From a virus (taxonomy: Duplodnaviria; Caudoviricetes): DNA of 64,000 nt. The stretch spans positions 256,001 through 320,000 of IMG/VR virus record IMGVR_UViG_3300014205_000170; one strand, given 5' to 3'. Position numbers and translations under genes: made by a program. The notes below the pieces were generated by a model. It did no database searches and was not told the origin of the DNA. It worked only from the letters and a program-made list of their open reading frames with translations. Of the stretch, positions 34,277 through 56,980 are shown one piece after another; position 1 is the stretch's first letter, and every line of letters begins with the position of its first letter.

Positions 34277-34801
34277 TTAATCGTTTTCACCATATTTTTT
34301 AATGAGCCATTCTGAAATAAAACCTTTATATTTTTGTCTATTTTCTAATGGTAAATTTTTATACGACCCTATTTTTTTTCTACAATTCTCAGCTCCACAA
34401 TTACAATTTAAAACCCAATAGTAAAACGAATCTGGATTTTCAGTATCATTATCCTCGCTCATTTCATAATCCCAAGTTATTTCTTCATCAACTTCAATAT
34501 CTCTCATTGCTACTATTTGAAATAAATTTTTAATCCCGCAATTAGGTTCACACGAATGATTTAAATAAATTGCAAGATTGGTAGCGTATTTCCACTTACC
34601 ATCTTCAAATTGAATACAATGGTCATTTAAATGTTCAGTCCAATCTTTTTGTCCATTTGCCGGAACATTACTTACCACATTTTCATCTGTATATATAGAG
34701 CCTTCAAATTCACTTATGATTTCTCCAGCATTTATTTTGCTTTTGGCAAAAACACCTTTGCCAAATTTAGATTCTCTTAATTCAACTTTTAAATTATCCA
34801 T
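34277..34801 (-). CDS. SET-domain lysine methyltransferase with post-SET Zn motif
   Basis: GKGVFA, YLNHSCEPN, AMRDI..EEITWDY, CNCGAENCR. Confidence 0.9.
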   Translation of the reverse strand: MDNLKVELRESKFGKGVFAKSKINAGEIISEFEGSIYTDENVVSNVPANGQKDWTEHLNDHCIQFEDGKWKYATNLAIYLNHSCEPNCGIKNLFQIVAMRDIEVDEEITWDYEMSEDNDTENPDSFYYWVLNCNCGAENCRKKIGSYKNLPLENRQKYKGFISEWLIKKYGEND

Positions 34802-35124
34802 TATATTCGTTTCTCTGTTATTACATTTCTACTTTCCGCTTCTGCATTAAAGTAAGAAGAAATTCTATCTAATTTTTTATCAATAAATTTTATTCTATCT
34901 AAAAAATGTTTTTGTTGTTTTTCAGTTGTTAAAATAGTTGGGACATTTAAACATTCTACTTTTGTGGGCATATCTCTTACGGGTACAAAAATACTTAATA
35001 CTTGGTCTTCATCCCCATCTTTTAATTGAGCTTCTTTTTTAACACGTCTTATATAATTTCCAACGTCTTCTTGGCTCATATTTCCAACATTCATATAAAA
35101 AACAAGTATAGTTTTGTCCAACAT
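34801..35124 (-). CDS. Stand-alone portal clip-domain homologue with SRNVITEK tag
   Basis: VFYMNVGNMSQEDV...FVPVRDMPTKVECL aligns by eye with this phage's portal VYFIEVGNIDPADV...FLPVRGDKSSRIETL. Confidence 0.7.
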   Translation of the reverse strand: MLDKTILVFYMNVGNMSQEDVGNYIRRVKKEAQLKDGDEDQVLSIFVPVRDMPTKVECLNVPTILTTEKQQKHFLDRIKFIDKKLDRISSYFNAEAESRNVITEKRI

Positions 35125-35135
35125 TTTAAATCGTA

Positions 35136-35939
35136 TTATTTTTCTTGTTGTGTTTCTTCTTCTTTTTTAACCTCTCTACTAGGCTTAGAAATATGTGCCC
35201 AACATCCATCAACATTTTCAAAACTCATTTCTGATAATTCAATTGGCTTATCATTTAGGTACATTTCGTTGATTTGTTTTTGGTCAGGCCCAGCAATATC
35301 TTTCACGATAACATTATTTGTAAACGAATACATTATGTTCTTCGGAAAAAATTCAAACACTTCTGCCATTTTTTCTTCCAATTCATCAAAATTATTAAAA
35401 GATACTTGTTTTAATAATTTCATAAATTCTTTTGTTCTAAAAATATGACCTTCAGTAGAAAAAGGGAATCCATAATCTAAATAATGCTTTAACCAATCCC
35501 ACTTCATAATTTTATCATCCATAAGAAATGTTTCACCAAATAAAGTATTATTAGTATTCATATTTCTACATACTTTTGTATTTTTTCCTAATCGTAAAGA
35601 AAAACAAAACGCATCTTGGTCTGCATTTAAAATATCAGGGATTGCTGCAAAATTCTCTGGCGAATATAAAATATCATCATCTCTTAAAAACATACTGAAT
35701 TGAGCATTACTTTGAAATAACCTTAAAATACCTTCTTTAAAATTAGAATATCCTGTCCAATTAATATTTAAATCTGAAAATTCTTCTTTTACTTTTTCAT
35801 ATAAAGGTTCAAAATCAGAATTGGCAGAACGATGCATTACATTCAAATTGAATGAGTTTAAAGAATTTTTTCTAATGCTTTGTAGTAAAATCCTTAATCT
35901 CGCTGGATTATTTTCACTTAAAATTACTGTGTTTATCAT
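35136..35939 (-). CDS. GT-A fold glycosyltransferase-like protein
   Basis: FLRDDDIL, FSLRLG, DYGFPFSTEGHIFR. Confidence 0.6.
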   Translation of the reverse strand: MINTVILSENNPARLRILLQSIRKNSLNSFNLNVMHRSANSDFEPLYEKVKEEFSDLNINWTGYSNFKEGILRLFQSNAQFSMFLRDDDILYSPENFAAIPDILNADQDAFCFSLRLGKNTKVCRNMNTNNTLFGETFLMDDKIMKWDWLKHYLDYGFPFSTEGHIFRTKEFMKLLKQVSFNNFDELEEKMAEVFEFFPKNIMYSFTNNVIVKDIAGPDQKQINEMYLNDKPIELSEMSFENVDGCWAHISKPSREVKKEEETQQEK

Positions 35940-35959: not shown

Positions 35960-36424
35960 TTACTTATCCAAAATCATATCAAAAGAGATAATATTATGAA
36001 ATTGCACTACATCATTTTCAATAGTTCCTGTTGCTCTCAACGAAGTCCTAATTAAGTTATTCAAATATAATTCATGAATAAATTGAGACTTATCAGTATT
36101 TAAAAATTGAATTGTGCCATACACAACTTTATCTTGAATATATATATTCTTTATTATGTGAGTACTATTTTTAAGGTCAACAACAGTTCCGCTACCACCC
36201 TGTAATTCTTGTGCACCAAAAAATTCTCCCAACAAAAAGTCTGTTGATGTGTTTTTTATACAATCTTCTAATGAAATCCAATTAACTTCTCCATAACCCC
36301 AATAAGGAGATTTAAAATCTGTTAAAAAAACATTTTTAAAAACATTATTGTATTTTTCAAATAAAACTTTTCTATTACCCAAATGCCTATCAACATTTAA
36401 AGTAGTGATTGGAAACATTCCCAT
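35960..36424 (-). CDS. Degenerate prohead-protease (gp21-like) paralogue with NRKVLFEK tag
   Basis: LGEFFGA (vs LGELxHP), VDLKNSTHII, VYGTIQFLNT, SLRATG (vs SSRGxG), ISFDMI. Confidence 0.7.
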   Translation of the reverse strand: MGMFPITTLNVDRHLGNRKVLFEKYNNVFKNVFLTDFKSPYWGYGEVNWISLEDCIKNTSTDFLLGEFFGAQELQGGSGTVVDLKNSTHIIKNIYIQDKVVYGTIQFLNTDKSQFIHELYLNNLIRTSLRATGTIENDVVQFHNIISFDMILDK

Positions 36425-36762
36425 TATAATTCCTCCCTCTCAATCCATTTCCAACCCAAAAAGAAAGCAATTGCAAATCTGTTAAATCTAGTTGGTCTTT
36501 TATTTGACATTAATAAAAGTTGTTTATTTCCACCAGTAACATCATATCCACCTTTGGTATCTTGTGTTTTATTTAAAACGACTCTATCTTGAGTAACCAT
36601 TATTCCACAATTTTGATTAACATTGTTTTGAACAGCAAAAAATACATGATTTGCAACAATGGGATTTGGATTATATTTTTCAAATAATACAATGTTTTTA
36701 CGCTTATTTTTAAGCATCTTTCTTGAAACTTCAAATTTCCTTTTTAAAATCTTGAAAATCAT
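36424..36762 (-). CDS. Hypothetical protein with KNIVLFEK tag
   Basis: 112 aa; C-terminal KRPTRFNRF..FFLGWKW. Confidence 0.6.
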   Translation of the reverse strand: MIFKILKRKFEVSRKMLKNKRKNIVLFEKYNPNPIVANHVFFAVQNNVNQNCGIMVTQDRVVLNKTQDTKGGYDVTGGNKQLLLMSNKRPTRFNRFAIAFFLGWKWIEREEL

Positions 36763-37484
36763 TTTTTTAGTTTTTTATATTTCCAAACAAAATTGTTGGA
36801 AGTTTTTAATATACCGCGACAAGCTCTTGAGATACCTGTTGGATTTATATTTAAACCTCTACCCGCTTCTCTAATGCTATTCCACTCTTTTATTAATATT
36901 TTATTTAAATCATATTGCAAAATTGGTTTAGATTTTATTTTTATATTATAATTTGACAAATCCTTTCTAATATTTCCTCGATTAACACTCTTTCCTGTAA
37001 TTGCATTTTTGTGTAATTGTCGCCATTTTTTTTCTCTTCTACATGCTTCTTCTGCTCCATATTTCTCATTCCAAATTTTTAATATCATTGCAACAGAGGG
37101 AGCATTTGCCTTTTTATTGATATTGTACCCATGTTGACTAGAATAAGATTGTTTATAGTTAAGCCAATAATCTTCTCTATTCAACAATAAATTTTCAGAT
37201 ACTGTTTCTAATATTTGAAATTCAAATACTTCTGACCCATATTTATTCCAAGCACGTTGAAGTTTATAATTATTGTGTTTATTTTTAATAAGGGCACGTT
37301 TATGCTGTTTAAATCTCTTGTACATATCATTTGAACTGCCAATATATAATTTTTGACTTAACACATTTATGATAGCATAAATTCCCACTATTTTATTTGT
37401 AACTTTCAATTGTATTAAACTTATTTTTTTTAGTAATTGCTTCATGGCAACTCCATTGTAAATTTTGGTCAACTTTATCATCAC
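36759..37484 (-). mobile_element. Free-standing GIY-YIG homing endonuclease with C-terminal NUMOD1-type HTH
   Basis: GIYAIIN..KLYIGSS..KRF..H, LQRAWNKYG..FEFQILE, KPILQYDL..EWNSIREAGR; real start may be GTG at 37388. Confidence 0.85.
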
Positions 37485-38241
37485 TTATAGGATTGTTCCT
37501 ATTATATACATATAAAGCTTTGTCATTATGTTTAGTTTTTTCAAATCCAGCTATTTCTAACAAAGGTAAGAACATACAAACATCATATGCTGATTTATAC
37601 CATTCTCCAGTTGCATCTTTAAAACAATTAAAATCTGGGTCTTGTTTACCAATTTCATGATAAATTCCAGCTCTAAATGTTCTTATATGAGATACTTTAA
37701 ATGGTACTTTTCTTAAGCGCGGAAACTCTTCTTTAGTATATGGTGCTGAACAACACTTTCTTCCATCAGTCCACTTTGAACTTCCGTACATTATCCAACA
37801 ATCATGTTCATTATAATACTCATTGATATATGAAAGTGCATTTTTATTTAATAACCAATCGTCTCCATCTAAAATAACTACAATATCATCAGGGTCAGTA
37901 CAAAAATTCATTACTCCATTATGAATATTGGCAAGTGCTGTATTTCTTTGACTAGAACGCCAAGCCAGTACATTACTACATTTAGTAATTTCCAATAAAG
38001 GATGTTTTTCTATAATAACAGGTTTTCCTTCCTCATCCAATTCTGGAGTTCCATCAGCCTTAGTTTTAAATTTACAATCCGGTATTTTACTATAAGACCC
38101 ATCAGTTGAACAATCATCTATAAACAAAACCTCGTAATTTTCATAATTCTGTGTTAATATAGAATTAATGCACATATCCAAAAATTCGCCTGGATTATAG
38201 AAAGGTACAACAATTTTGATTTTATTTAACTTCTTTTCCAT
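37393..38241 (-). CDS. GT2 glycosyltransferase
   Basis: IVVPFYN, IDDCSTDGS, LDGDDW, SHIRTFR, LYVYN. Confidence 0.9.
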   Translation of the reverse strand: MEKKLNKIKIVVPFYNPGEFLDMCINSILTQNYENYEVLFIDDCSTDGSYSKIPDCKFKTKADGTPELDEEGKPVIIEKHPLLEITKCSNVLAWRSSQRNTALANIHNGVMNFCTDPDDIVVILDGDDWLLNKNALSYINEYYNEHDCWIMYGSSKWTDGRKCCSAPYTKEEFPRLRKVPFKVSHIRTFRAGIYHEIGKQDPDFNCFKDATGEWYKSAYDVCMFLPLLEIAGFEKTKHNDKALYVYNRNNPISDDKVDQNLQWSCHEAITKKNKFNTIESYK

Positions 38242-53339: not shown

Positions 53340-55235
53340 TTAATCTAAAATTTCACCTTCTTTTTTATTGATTCCATCTTCAAGGCTCTTGAGATGATTT
53401 TCAATATTTTCCATTAGCATTTTTGTTCTATGATTTACAGCTGCATTATTTTTTTGTAACTTCGTAGGTTGGTTTTTTTTAGGTGCTCCTTCTGAAAGTG
53501 GTTCTTCCGGAATCGTTTCTTCTCCTCCTTCACCACCTTCTGCACCAGCTTCTGCTCCTAAGTTTTCTCCTCCGGCTTCACCGCCTAAGCCTCCCATATC
53601 AGCTCCGCCACCCATATCAACTCCACCACCTAAGCCACCGCCAAGACTACTGCTTATTCCTGCACCAGCACTTGCTCCCATATCAGCTCCACCACCCATG
53701 TCACCATTAGCTGCATCAGGTTGTGCTCCTGGTACAAAATCTGGTCTTCTGAATTTTTTATCAAGGTCTACAAATATTCCAGTTTCAATATATTCAGCAG
53801 CAGCGCCCTCAATTTCAGAAAACATCTTACGTTCAATTTTCTTCTGTCTAATAATTTGTTTTATTTCAGCCTCAGAAAAACCCATAATATATTGCATTGC
53901 CCAAGTATAAGACACTGGAGAAGTAGGTTCAGGAGTAAACATAGCTTGAAACACTTCTAAACGTGCTTTCATTGTTTCCAACTTAAGCAACTCTTGTTGA
54001 GTTGAAGGATTTGCTAATGTTAATTGAAAATTATCTATTTCATCTTCTAGACCTAAAAAATATAAATGAATATTTGCAACTCTTCTTAATTCTATAATAA
54101 TGAATTGTTGAAGTCTGTTTATAGTTCTTGAAAATCTTAAATCCGCTTGAGAAAGTGCTGAACCTCCCGGAATAGTTTCTGCATAATTTAAATAAGGTTT
54201 TGGAACTTTTAAAGCCGCAAATAATTTATTTTGTAGATATTCAATATCCGCAATATCATTTAAATTAGATGCACCTGGTAATGTTTCAATTCTAGAACTT
54301 TTATCTCCTCTTACTGGTAAAAAATAATCTTCTTCATAAGTAATAGGACTATATTTTAAATTTATATTTCCAGTTGTCGGGTCTACTAAAGGAGCTTTTT
54401 TAACTTGCGCTTTAGTTTTCTCCATAAATTGAGGCACATCTGCAGGGTCTATATTTCCAACTTCAATAAAATATACTCTACGCTCTGGTGCTCTTACTAA
54501 TCTATAAACCAACATAGCATCTTCCGCTAATTGTAATTGTTTCCACAATTTTCGAGCTGGTTCTAAAACAGAACGACCATATGGTAATCGACTACTATCA
54601 GAAAGTAATCTAAAGTGTGCAATTTGCCATTCCTCAAAGAACATATTGCCAACATCCCATCTAAATCTACATTTACCCAATTCATTCGTTGGAGATTCTT
54701 CTCTATGAATTTCTCCAACTGGTAATTGAATAATATCATAAACACCTCTTTCTTGGTCTATTTCCAATTTTAAAAATAAATCACCAAATTTTAACAATTC
54801 TCTAGACCAAAAACCAAGATTATAATTTACATTAAGAACATTATAAAATAAATCTTTTAAAGTCTTTTTTACTCTCGAATTTTCACTGTATATAGTTAAA
54901 ATTTCACCTTGTTCAGAACGCGTTACACATTCATCAGCTAAAATATCCAATGCCGCAGAAACTTCCGGAGATTGGTCCATTGCTCTATAATCTTGATAAG
55001 ATGTAAATCTATCTGCTTCATAATATAAAGAACGTGAATATAAATCTTGTGCAATTTTTGAAGATTGTATATCTAAAAATTCTTGTTGTTTTTGTTGTTT
55101 GGATGCAAAAGGATTACTTAAAGCCGGTGTGCTTACAAGTATGTTTTTATTGGTTTCTTCCGCGCTTTGAGGTCGCTGTCTTCTCAGAGCTCTAAACACC
55201 CCTGCGAATATACTATCATCATATTTTTCAGCCAT
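53340..55235 (-). CDS. Portal protein, T4 gp20-like
   Basis: YRAMDQSPEVSAALDILADE, HFRL, PYGRSVLE, LAEDAMLVYRLVRAPERRVYFIEVGN, EDYFLPVRG, LFAALKVP; Gly/acidic tail. Confidence 0.95.
   Translation of the reverse strand: MAEKYDDSIFAGVFRALRRQRPQSAEETNKNILVSTPALSNPFASKQQKQQEFLDIQSSKIAQDLYSRSLYYEADRFTSYQDYRAMDQSPEVSAALDILADECVTRSEQGEILTIYSENSRVKKTLKDLFYNVLNVNYNLGFWSRELLKFGDLFLKLEIDQERGVYDIIQLPVGEIHREESPTNELGKCRFRWDVGNMFFEEWQIAHFRLLSDSSRLPYGRSVLEPARKLWKQLQLAEDAMLVYRLVRAPERRVYFIEVGNIDPADVPQFMEKTKAQVKKAPLVDPTTGNINLKYSPITYEEDYFLPVRGDKSSRIETLPGASNLNDIADIEYLQNKLFAALKVPKPYLNYAETIPGGSALSQADLRFSRTINRLQQFIIIELRRVANIHLYFLGLEDEIDNFQLTLANPSTQQELLKLETMKARLEVFQAMFTPEPTSPVSYTWAMQYIMGFSEAEIKQIIRQKKIERKMFSEIEGAAAEYIETGIFVDLDKKFRRPDFVPGAQPDAANGDMGGGADMGASAGAGISSSLGGGLGGGVDMGGGADMGGLGGEAGGENLGAEAGAEGGEGGEETIPEEPLSEGAPKKNQPTKLQKNNAAVNHRTKMLMENIENHLKSLEDGINKKEGEILD
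53560..53705 (-). repeat. Gly-rich DMGGG coding repeats in the portal tail
   Basis: DMGGGADMGASAGAG...GGGVDMGGGADMGGLGGE. Confidence 0.6.
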
Positions 55236-55294: not shown

Positions 55295-56980
55295 TTAGGT
55301 GGAAATAGGTCCATATAGCCACCCTAAATCACTATCTGGAGTTTGTATATTTTTCTTTATTTCCTTTTGTATATTAGCAGAAGGCGCATTAGGATTACCA
55401 TTTGTTTGATAGCTGATGGATTCAATCATAGCTTTAAAAAATTCTTTACTTTTAAATACATTATCAAATTCAGTATCTCTCATAAATAATGCTATCGCAA
55501 ATGCAAAAATAAGGTCATCATTATATCCATCAGCATGCTCAGGTTTATCGCCTTTATGGATGAATGTTCGAAATTCAGTCAATAGTCTTTTTGAATAAAT
55601 TTTTACTTGTGTTTCTCTCATATATTTTGCTACACAACTCATTAGTAAAGGTCTAGTTTTTGAAGTTGTTTGAAAACCTGGAATTTCACTATCTTGGTCT
55701 ATAAAATCAAGTCCACCATATCTTACATAGATTTTTTTAATTGATTTAGAATGATGAATTTTATCAGAAGGATATCCTAAAGTATTTTTAAGCGCAAGTG
55801 TCGTTACTAAACCATGGTTATTTCCTTCAATCGCAACAAAGGCCATATTATAATCAATTGCTACCTTCATCACTAATTGTGCAAAAACATCTGGAGGGAT
55901 TTTACCTTGATATTCTGCTACTTGAGTTAAAGTATCTGCATTAATTACTTGTAAAGTTGAAAAGTCAGCACTATCTCCACGGGCAACATCCCCTCCTATA
56001 ATATAATTTGCTTTAGGTTCTGGTTTTTCCCAAACATAAAATGTAGTTTCTCTTTTAATAAATCGCTCTGCTGGTTCTTTGTAATCGTAATACCAAACAG
56101 GTTTAATTGTAGAAATATTATTTTCATATTTGTCAATAATCCAATTTTCAATTACAACAGCAGAAGAGCCTTCAAATGATAAATCTAATTCTTGTGCGAT
56201 TTTAATTTTATCATATTTCATCAATGCGCATTGTTCTTCATACCAAGGACTCCACCAAAATCTTCTTCCATGTTCATCTACTCTTTCTTCTAATCCTCTT
56301 GCATAATAAGGATGTTTACTCCAATGCACTTCTGTTCCAACAAAAGCTTTTTTATCTGTCTTTTGTTTTTTAATTGTTTCTGTCCAAGTTGTATGATATA
56401 AACCACCAGTTCCATTTGGAGTAGAAATCATAATACACTTAGCACTTTCAGCAGATAAAGCCAAACCTGCAGCCATCCAAATTTCTTCTGCGTTTTCAAT
56501 AAACGCAGTCTCATCTAAAATTAACATTGTTAATGTTTCTCCACGTCCAGCATTTCCACCGGAAGCTACCGCCTTACACCAACTACCATTAGATATGATA
56601 ATTTGTTGTGTATTATTTGTAGGAATGCTATCAGGTAAAAGAAAAGGAGGTAAGTAATCTAAAAATTGTTTTACCGATGCTAAAAATCGTCTTGCTCCAG
56701 CACCATCATTTGCTACAATAAGAATTCTTTCATTCTCATTAAAAAGCATTTTCCAACATACATATCCAGATGTAATTACACTAAGTCCTGTCTGGCGAGC
56801 TTTAAGTATAATGTTATTTTTATGATTTGTGTAATTACTTAAAACTTCTTTTTGATATTCGAAAAGAGTTAATCTATCAATAGTATTTTTGGTAATATCA
56901 AAAATATAACCATACGTATTCATAAAATACACAGGGTCTCTAGCACATCTTATAAATTCTATTGTTTCTTGTTGTGTCAT
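55295..56980 (-). CDS. terL: Terminase large subunit, T4 gp17-like
   Basis: KARQTGLS Walker A, LILDE Walker B, ISTPNG, nuclease GGDVARG..D, DDLIFA. Confidence 0.95.
   Translation of the reverse strand: MTQQETIEFIRCARDPVYFMNTYGYIFDITKNTIDRLTLFEYQKEVLSNYTNHKNNIILKARQTGLSVITSGYVCWKMLFNENERILIVANDGAGARRFLASVKQFLDYLPPFLLPDSIPTNNTQQIIISNGSWCKAVASGGNAGRGETLTMLILDETAFIENAEEIWMAAGLALSAESAKCIMISTPNGTGGLYHTTWTETIKKQKTDKKAFVGTEVHWSKHPYYARGLEERVDEHGRRFWWSPWYEEQCALMKYDKIKIAQELDLSFEGSSAVVIENWIIDKYENNISTIKPVWYYDYKEPAERFIKRETTFYVWEKPEPKANYIIGGDVARGDSADFSTLQVINADTLTQVAEYQGKIPPDVFAQLVMKVAIDYNMAFVAIEGNNHGLVTTLALKNTLGYPSDKIHHSKSIKKIYVRYGGLDFIDQDSEIPGFQTTSKTRPLLMSCVAKYMRETQVKIYSKRLLTEFRTFIHKGDKPEHADGYNDDLIFAFAIALFMRDTEFDNVFKSKEFFKAMIESISYQTNGNPNAPSANIQKEIKKNIQTPDSDLGWLYGPIST

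What the first reader, a model, noticed from the sequence alone, without database searches (positions are those of the whole stretch)
34801..35124. Stand-alone portal clip domain hidden inside the glycosylation island
ILVFYMNVGNMSQEDVGNYIRRVKK...SIFVPVRDMPTKVECL aligns by eye with the genome's own portal at ~54270-54490 (RRVYFIEVGNIDPADVPQFMEKTK...DYFLPVRGDKSSRIETL). Only this segment is kept, followed by a helix and the RNVITEK tag. In T4-type portals this region forms the clip, the external face that contacts terminase. A free clip domain could titrate terminase or a portal-sensing immune receptor (inference).
Basis: partly seen in the sequence, partly recalled or inferred. Interest (0 to 1): 0.8.

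Follow-up and report, generated by a model that had tools for sequence, protein, structure and literature searches.

The report
Free-standing portal clip domain protein
A 519-kb uncultured T4-type phage encodes a 107-residue protein that is a true stand-alone copy of the portal's clip domain, the outside face that docks the DNA-packaging motor, the neck and some bacterial immune sensors. It belongs to an unnamed family of about 120 sequence clusters whose function is untested.

Summary
ORF 34801..35124 (-) is a real, tightly packed gene of 107 aa.

**Homology to the portal clip**
- A profile of 84 relatives finds the portal as the only non-self hit among 1,542 ORFs of the genome (E 1.2e-5). 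The reverse search agrees.
- Profile-profile comparison gives 97.6-97.9% probability (E about 1e-12). Shuffled controls reach 1.8% at most.
- The matched portal segment, residues 254-320, corresponds to T4 gp20 284-351. That lies inside the published clip domain (279-358).
- The predicted fold is strand-helix-strand-strand, as in the clip. Its nearest ESM Atlas shape is a gp20-family fragment (TM 0.77). PDB searches were inconclusive.
- The gp17-contacting Asn-Met tip of gp20 is kept as N15-M16.

**The rest of the protein**
- A long helix follows, then the genome-wide address peptide (RNVITEK).
- I re-counted that peptide in 175 of 839 ORFs, against about 6 expected by chance.

**Family**
- About 120 clusters of roughly 90-110 aa proteins from uncultured phages.
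- No family of its own in Pfam or PHROGs, and no paper found.

**Function**
- Function is inferred, not shown. Most likely it mimics the clip and competes for a clip-binding partner.
- A portal-sensing immune receptor seems likelier than terminase.
- The terminase docking job gave no verdict.
- The scan had already noted the tag and the set of tagged mimics on this same genome.

The parts
34801..35124 (-). Gene for the 107-aa stand-alone clip-like protein (P0001)
   Evidence: ORF list and translation. Its stop overlaps the next start. Conserved homologues at 33-56% identity.
34948..35112 (-). Clip-like domain, residues 5-59: strand 5-12, G14-N15-M16 tip, helix 18-31, strand 42-49, strand 55-58
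   Evidence: AlphaFold models with pLDDT 89-90. hhalign to portal 254-320. Nearest Atlas shape is a PF07230 fragment, TM 0.77 over 64 residues, rmsd 2.2.
34831..34923 (-). Long C-terminal helix, residues 68-98
   Evidence: Model secondary structure. No detectable similarity to the portal beyond residue 61.
34810..34830 (-). Address peptide RNVITEK, residues 99-105
   Evidence: The motif [RK]x[VI][LIFM]xEK occurs 179 times in 175 of 839 non-overlapping ORFs of the genome, against 5.6 expected. It is present at the C-terminus in 19 of 121 family members.
53340..55235 (-). The phage's own T4-type portal (P0002, 631 aa)
   Evidence: PF07230 E 6.7e-75. T4 gp20 structures 3JA7/6UZC E about 1e-24.
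54276..54476 (-). Portal residues 254-320, the part of the clip domain that P0001 matches
   Evidence: Mapping to gp20 284-351, with domain limits from PMC4493910.
55295..56980 (-).
   Evidence: ORF list. Homologues carry PF03237.
35136..35939 (-). 267-aa protein of no recognised family, directly upstream. This neighbour is conserved in the megaphage lineage.
   Evidence: No Pfam or PHROG match. Homologues at 37-73% identity lie directly upstream of the small gene in L002, L003, L006/7 and L008/9, and 1.6 kb away in L010.
35960..36424 (-). 154-aa derivative of the head-maturation protease, with the tag at residue 18
   Evidence: phrog_207 E 1.4e-4. BLASTP to 202-210 aa proteins encoded downstream of portals. 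Tag found.
34277..34801 (-). SET-domain protein whose start overlaps the stop of the clip-like gene
   Evidence: PF00856 E 5.3e-15. Overlap seen.

Best explanation
The gene encodes a soluble copy of the T4-type portal clip domain (strand, Gly-Asn-Met tip, helix, beta-hairpin). The copy was taken out of the portal long ago. It is extended by one long helix and, in this lineage, by the phage's seven-residue address peptide.

I propose that it works by mimicry. It presents the same exposed surface as the clip of an unassembled or free portal and so occupies a factor that would otherwise bind that clip. The most likely factor is a host immune receptor that senses portals. The phage's own neck or terminase proteins are less likely.

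The address peptide would bring the protein to whatever reads that tag, plausibly the head-assembly machinery, together with about 170 other tagged proteins.

Shown: the gene, the family, homology to the clip, the fold order and the tag. Inferred: mimicry, the partner and the role of the tag.
For: **Homology and fold**
- Searches support the homology and the fold.
- 12 of 84 relatives scanned one by one hit PF07230, the commonest family by number of members (best E 1.9e-4). Four hit the portal PHROG 213.
- The family consensus peptide VFYINVGN occurs in 56 IMG/VR loci. All but two are in portal-length ORFs or fragments cut by a contig end, at the clip position; most are 530-630 aa.

**The clip tip**
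- The gp17-contacting tip of gp20 is N291, M292, R295 and K296 (PMC4493910).
- It aligns with N15-M16 of P0001 and G260-N261 of the phage's own portal. The Gly-Asn is the family consensus.

**Looks like an accessory gene**
- It is never next to the portal or terminase in the eight contexts seen.
- In L004 it sits in an array of small genes that includes a Tad2-like gene.
- Tandem duplications and fusions occur in the family.
- On the same contigs it is 42-52% identical where the neighbouring 267-aa protein is 68-73% identical.
- A tagged protease derivative lies two genes away.

**Precedent for sensing of the clip**
- SpbK docks on the clip of portal YonE (PMC12847820, PMC11984713).
- Avs families sense most core virion proteins (bioRxiv 10.64898/2026.01.04.697583).
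Against: - No binding partner is known, and the host and its defences are unknown.
- The residues shared with the portal (a hydrophobic strand, a Gly-Asn turn, an Asp-Val helix cap, Pro-Val-Arg) could be conserved for folding alone.
- A fragment that binds a sensor might trigger it rather than block it.
- I found no published case of a structural-protein fragment acting as a decoy for such sensors.
- The gene sits in one long operon with sugar-modifying enzymes, behind a TATAAATA box. That box is not enriched in this AT-rich window, so expression timing is unknown.
- Solved-structure searches did not single out portals.
Confidence: 0.4

Rival explanations
1. Terminase regulator. The free clip binds the phage's own large terminase, or that of a competing phage, and titrates it away from portals. 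This would delay or block packaging. It is the first reader's first option.
For: The clip is the gp17 docking site in T4, and mutants at N291-M292 abolish packaging (PMC4493910). N15-M16 are kept in P0001, and Gly-Asn is conserved in the family.
Against: Binding its own TerL would harm the phage. The T4 basic pair R295-K296 is E19-D20 here, although the phage's own portal also lacks the basic pair (A265-D266). The gene is not in the packaging module in any context seen.
Confidence: 0.1
2. Head or portal-vertex accessory. The tag takes the protein into the procapsid or to the portal vertex. There the clip-like domain pairs with portal, neck or DNA as a minor structural or assembly factor.
For: The tag is shared with about one fifth of the ORFs. 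It ends in Leu/Ile-x-Glu, the T4 prohead protease site type (my own knowledge; earlier notes of the scan reach the same reading). The Arg of Pro-Val-Arg aligns with the inner clip loop that faces DNA in gp20. A late-type TATAAATA box lies upstream of the operon.
Against: Most family members (102 of 121) lack the tag. The protein evolves much faster than the portal, TerL and the neighbouring gene. The assembled clip ring has no free strand edges (PMC4493910).
Confidence: 0.17
3. Diverged function unrelated to portal biology. An old clip-derived fold is reused as a small adaptor or regulator for the adjacent 267-aa protein and the sugar-modification operon.
For: The 265-268 aa gene is directly upstream, often with overlapping stop and start, in five loci including one at only about 32% identity.
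Against: All these loci share wider synteny (PhoH, GT2), so the adjacency may be inherited. In L010 1.6 kb separates the two genes. L004, L005 and a 2.7-kb contig have other neighbours.
Confidence: 0.2
4. Chance resemblance of a common small alpha/beta unit, not homology.
For: BLASTP and single-sequence Pfam or PDB searches do not report the match. PDB fold searches give thioredoxin-like and tubulin pieces at low scores.
Against: Reciprocal profile hits are unique within the genome. hhalign gives 97.9% against 1.8% at most for controls. All 120 portals tested are hit at the same position. The top Atlas shape is a gp20 fragment.
Confidence: 0.03

Closest known systems
Clip domain of T4-type portal proteins (gp20, Pfam PF07230; PDB 3JA7, 6UZC)
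   Same: Homologous sequence over about 52 columns. Same order of elements (strand, Gly-Asn tip, helix, two strands). Conserved Asn-Met tip and Pro-Val-Arg loop. A helix follows, as stem helix alpha7 does in portals.
   Different: No wing, stem or crown, and no preceding stem helix. It lacks the loop of about 13 residues between the helix and the second strand. It is predicted as a closed monomer, whereas the portal clip sheet is shared between neighbouring subunits. It evolves much faster and is encoded away from the morphogenesis genes.
T4 internal proteins with a capsid targeting sequence (IPI-III, Alt)
   Same: Small accessory proteins that carry a short shared peptide ending in Leu/Ile-x-Glu. 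The peptide could direct them into the head (resemblance from my own knowledge and from the scan's earlier notes).
   Different: The tag here is C-terminal. Genome-wide it is N-terminal, C-terminal or internal in similar numbers. Neither cleavage nor packaging is shown. The body of the protein is a portal fragment, not an internal-protein fold.
Phage anti-defence proteins that act as mimics or decoys (for example the DNA mimic Ocr; EVADES catalogue, bioRxiv 10.1101/2025.06.06.658234)
   Same: The proposed logic: a small, fast-evolving accessory protein imitates the molecule that a defence protein recognises.
   Different: It would imitate a virion protein domain rather than DNA. No such decoy was found in the literature searched, and nothing is tested here.

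Membership tests
T4-type portal protein (PF07230 Portal_T4) | Score above Pfam's gathering cut-off (22.9 bits) | tested here: not met
   P0001 has no Pfam hit. 12 of 84 relatives hit PF07230 only below the cut-off (best E 1.9e-4; for example P0104 at 14.7 bits, profile 207-235).
T4-type portal protein (PF07230 Portal_T4) | Full portal architecture: wing, stem, clip and crown in a protein of about 500-650 aa | tested here: not met
   107 aa. Only portal residues 254-320 are matched. Family median length is 102 aa.
Portal clip domain (as a homologous domain, not as a portal) | Significant profile-profile similarity confined to the clip (gp20 279-358) | tested here: met
   hhalign 97.6-97.9%, E 2.6e-12 to 4e-13, against controls of 1.8% at most. 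Mapping.
Portal clip domain (as a homologous domain, not as a portal) | Three beta-strands and one helix in the order strand-helix-strand-strand | tested here: met
   Models: E5-12, H18-31, E42-49, E55-58, pLDDT 89-90. The clip is described in PMC4493910.
Portal clip domain (as a homologous domain, not as a portal) | Three-dimensional superposition on a solved portal clip | tested here: inconclusive
   The nearest shape among Atlas predicted models is a PF07230 fragment (TM 0.77, 64 residues, rmsd 2.2). Foldseek and VIA-align against the PDB gave only weak, generic matches (best Z 3.9). A chain of the phage Mycofy1 head-to-tail interface scored Z 2.8; I did not identify that chain.
Portal clip domain (as a homologous domain, not as a portal) | Binds terminase or neck proteins | not testable with these tools
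   Needs biochemistry.
T4-like capsid-targeted internal proteins | N-terminal targeting peptide removed by the prohead protease; protein found in virions | not testable with these tools
   The tag is present but C-terminal. Cleavage and packaging need proteomics.

The most novel reading that the evidence does not exclude
The stand-alone clip is one member of a set of cut-down virion-protein domains in this megaphage (portal clip, head protease, and others noted by the scan). Each carries the same address peptide. Together they would form a decoy arsenal that is loaded into the head, delivered to the next cell, and blunts pattern-recognition receptors of the Avs or SpbK type that sense core virion proteins.
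Probability: 0.2. Interest if true: 0.85.

Novelty: new variant of a known kind. Interest (0 to 1): 0.62.

Why it matters
The portal clip is the hub where the packaging motor, the neck and at least two kinds of bacterial immune sensor meet the capsid. A widespread, fast-evolving family of free clip domains in large uncultured phages has no family of its own in Pfam or PHROGs, and I found no paper on it.

If it is a mimic, it would be the first example of a phage using a fragment of its own structural protein against protein-sensing immunity, or to control packaging. It would also give a small, easily expressed probe for what binds the clip.

It also adds a clear, homology-proven case to the set of tagged derivatives of virion proteins in this genome. 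That helps the search for what reads the tag.

Tried and rejected
- **BLASTP of P0001 against the portal:**
- **Single-protein scans:** the Pfam scan of P0001 gave no hit. The PHROG scan gave two weak hits to families of unknown function (E 0.017 and 0.058).
- **Family profiles against PDB sequences:** only coiled-coil or designed-protein noise, and no gp20.
- **Fold searches against the PDB, whole model and domain alone (Foldseek and VIA-align):** no portal stood out. The long helix dominated the whole-model search. The domain gave thioredoxin-like matches with Z of 3.9 at most.
- **Complex prediction of P0001 with the large terminase (alignments A2 and A5):** no verdict, score 0.00, controls not run. 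This is evidence neither for nor against binding.
- **tblastn of P0001 and P0029 against 50,697 GenBank phage records:** no match.
- **The search for related loci:** failed with A2 and found one locus with A1.
- **Late-promoter box TATAAATA:** one lies upstream of the operon, but the box is not enriched in the window (16 found, 16 expected), so I draw no conclusion on timing.
- **Two long repetitive proteins in the representative search (P0008, P0120):** inspected and set aside as unrelated repeats.
- **Recent duplication of the phage's own portal clip:** rejected. The family profile scores the phage's own portal (19-22 bits) no better than other portals (median 25 bits).

Full report
**Source and gene.** The window is bases 256,001-320,000 of a 518,809-bp IMG/VR virus record with direct terminal repeats and 30% G+C. 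ORF 34801..35124 (-) encodes 107 aa (P0001). It starts 11 nt after the stop of the upstream gene, and its stop overlaps the ATG of a SET-domain gene. The phage's portal is 53340..55235 (-), 631 aa, PF07230 E 6.7e-75. The large terminase lies next to it (homologues carry PF03237).

**Is the resemblance real?**
- BLASTP did not report it.
Only 4 of 1,000 shuffles reached that score.
- P0001 has relatives. Five near ones have 33-56% identity. An exhaustive search found 119 representative clusters at E of 1e-3 or better, nearly all 85-130 aa. Two long repetitive hits are unrelated.
- A profile of 84 members, run with all filters off against every ORF of 50 aa or more in the genome (1,542), finds itself and the portal only (E 1.2e-5, profile 8-57 against portal 254-319). 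The next hit has E 0.13.
- The same profile hits all 120 related portals at the same place (median 25 bits).
- In reverse, the portal profile picks P0001 as its best non-self hit: E 4.3e-4 for the whole portal, 1.3e-5 for the clip alone.
- hhalign gives 97.6% (E 2.6e-12), and 97.9% (E 4e-13) for the trimmed domain. Thirty column-shuffled portal alignments and one reversed alignment gave at most 1.8%.
- Scanned one by one, 12 of 84 members hit PF07230, more members than any other family (best E 1.9e-4). Four hit the portal PHROG 213. All are below curated cut-offs.
- The family consensus octapeptide VFYINVGN, searched as degenerate DNA in IMG/VR, occurs in 56 loci. All but two are in portal-length ORFs or fragments cut by a contig end, at the clip position; most are 530-630 aa.

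**Is the segment the clip?**
- The HMMER alignment of the portal to T4 gp20 (3JA7, 6UZC) is ungapped across this stretch, with an offset of +30. Portal 254-320 therefore equals gp20 284-351.
- Sun et al. define the clip as residues 279-358: three strands and helix alpha6, exposed outside the capsid, and the attachment site of gp17 and of the neck. Tip residues N291, M292, R295 and K296 contact gp17. The inner clip loop carries R338 and K342 (PMC4493910).
- In the alignments, P0001 G14-N15-M16 matches portal G260-N261-I262 and gp20 G290-N291-M292.
- P0001 E19-D20 matches portal A265-D266 and gp20 R295-K296.
- P0001 R50 matches portal R309 and gp20 R339.
- The Asn-Met tip is therefore kept. The T4 basic pair is kept neither in this phage's portal nor in its small protein.

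**Structure.**
- AlphaFold with the family alignment gives a confident model (pLDDT 89): strand 5-12, helix 18-31, strands 42-49 and 55-58, then a helix at 68-98.
- The domain alone gives pLDDT 90 and pTM 0.73. The order of elements is that of the clip.
- Searches of solved structures were inconclusive. The long helix dominated the first search. The isolated domain matched thioredoxin-like units weakly (Z of 3.9 at most), and a chain of a phage head-to-tail interface, which I did not identify, scored Z 2.8.
- This outcome is expected if the free protein closes on itself a sheet that portals share between neighbouring subunits (PMC4493910). That explanation is my inference.
- Among ESM Atlas cluster representatives, the nearest shape to the domain model is a gp20-family fragment (PF07230 in 99% of members): TM 0.77, 64 residues, rmsd 2.2. 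The Atlas's own model of P0001 gave the same family as its second row. Both sides of these comparisons are predictions.

**The tag.** RNVITEK occupies residues 99-105. The pattern [RK]x[VI][LIFM]xEK occurs 179 times in 175 of 839 non-overlapping ORFs, against 5.6 +/- 2.4 in shuffles. It is found at N-termini (63), C-termini (65) and inside proteins (51). This confirms independently what the scan had noted on this genome. Only 19 of 121 family members, the nearest clade, carry it. The clip-like domain is therefore the older unit and the tag a later addition.

**Context.**
- In the megaphage lineage, a 265-268 aa protein of no known family lies directly upstream, often with overlapping stop and start. 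This holds even in a locus where the small protein is only about 32% identical. Wider synteny is shared, though, and in L010 1.6 kb separates the two genes.
- Elsewhere the gene follows an acetyltransferase, sits in a long array of small genes with a Tad2-like gene, or lies between a 111-aa gene and a phosphatase on a 352-kb contig.
- On shared contigs the small protein is 42-52% identical where the neighbour is 68-73% identical. The nearest listed portal and terminase homologues are about 86-92% identical.
- Tandem duplicates and fusions exist in the family.
- Two genes upstream lies a tagged derivative of the head-maturation protease.

**Function.**
- Nothing here shows a partner. The terminase docking job returned no verdict.
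- From the anatomy, I judge clip mimicry the most likely mode of action.
- From its accessory-gene behaviour, I judge a host portal sensor a likelier target than the phage's own motor.
- The published record supports this. SpbK docks on the clip of YonE. EcAvs4 contacts the stem, clip and wing of portal monomers. Avs families sense most core virion proteins.
- I found no description of such a family or decoy. The family has no Pfam or PHROG family of its own and no match in GenBank phages.

**Verdict.** The domain assignment is supported. The proposed functions remain untested inference.

Noticed in passing
window 35960..36424 (-): A 154-aa protein with the tag RKVLFEK at residue 18. It is a cut-down relative of the head-maturation protease (phrog_207 E 1.4e-4). 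It matches 202-210 aa proteins encoded just downstream of portals in T4-like contigs.
   Followed up: partly
genome 502334..502672 (+), outside the window: A 112-aa ORF with a tag-like KRCVIVEK. Its C-terminal end resembles the portal clip loop that P0001 lacks (portal profile 271-307; E 3.5e-4 within the genome). It may be a second portal-derived piece.
   Followed up: partly
window 36759..37484 (-): A GIY-YIG/NUMOD1 homing-endonuclease gene overlaps the 3' part of the GT2 gene 37393..38241. It is absent at this place in the related loci L002, L003 and L008.
   Followed up: no
relatives of window 53340..55235 and 55295..56980: Many close homologues of the portal and of the large terminase carry inteins (PF14890, PF14528, PF07591). 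This phage's copies do not.
   Followed up: no
window 34277..34801 (-): A SET-domain methyltransferase (PF00856 E 5.3e-15) is translationally coupled to the clip-like gene. A SET gene follows the homologue in L008/L009 as well, but not in L002/L003.
   Followed up: partly
family members P0049, P0053, P0057, P0072, P0082, P0100: Tandem two- or three-domain versions of the clip-like protein, and fusions to unrelated N- or C-terminal extensions.
   Followed up: no
L004 13665..13973: A Tad2-like (anti-Thoeris) gene lies in the same array of small genes as a clip-like homologue, on a 32-kb contig.
   Followed up: no
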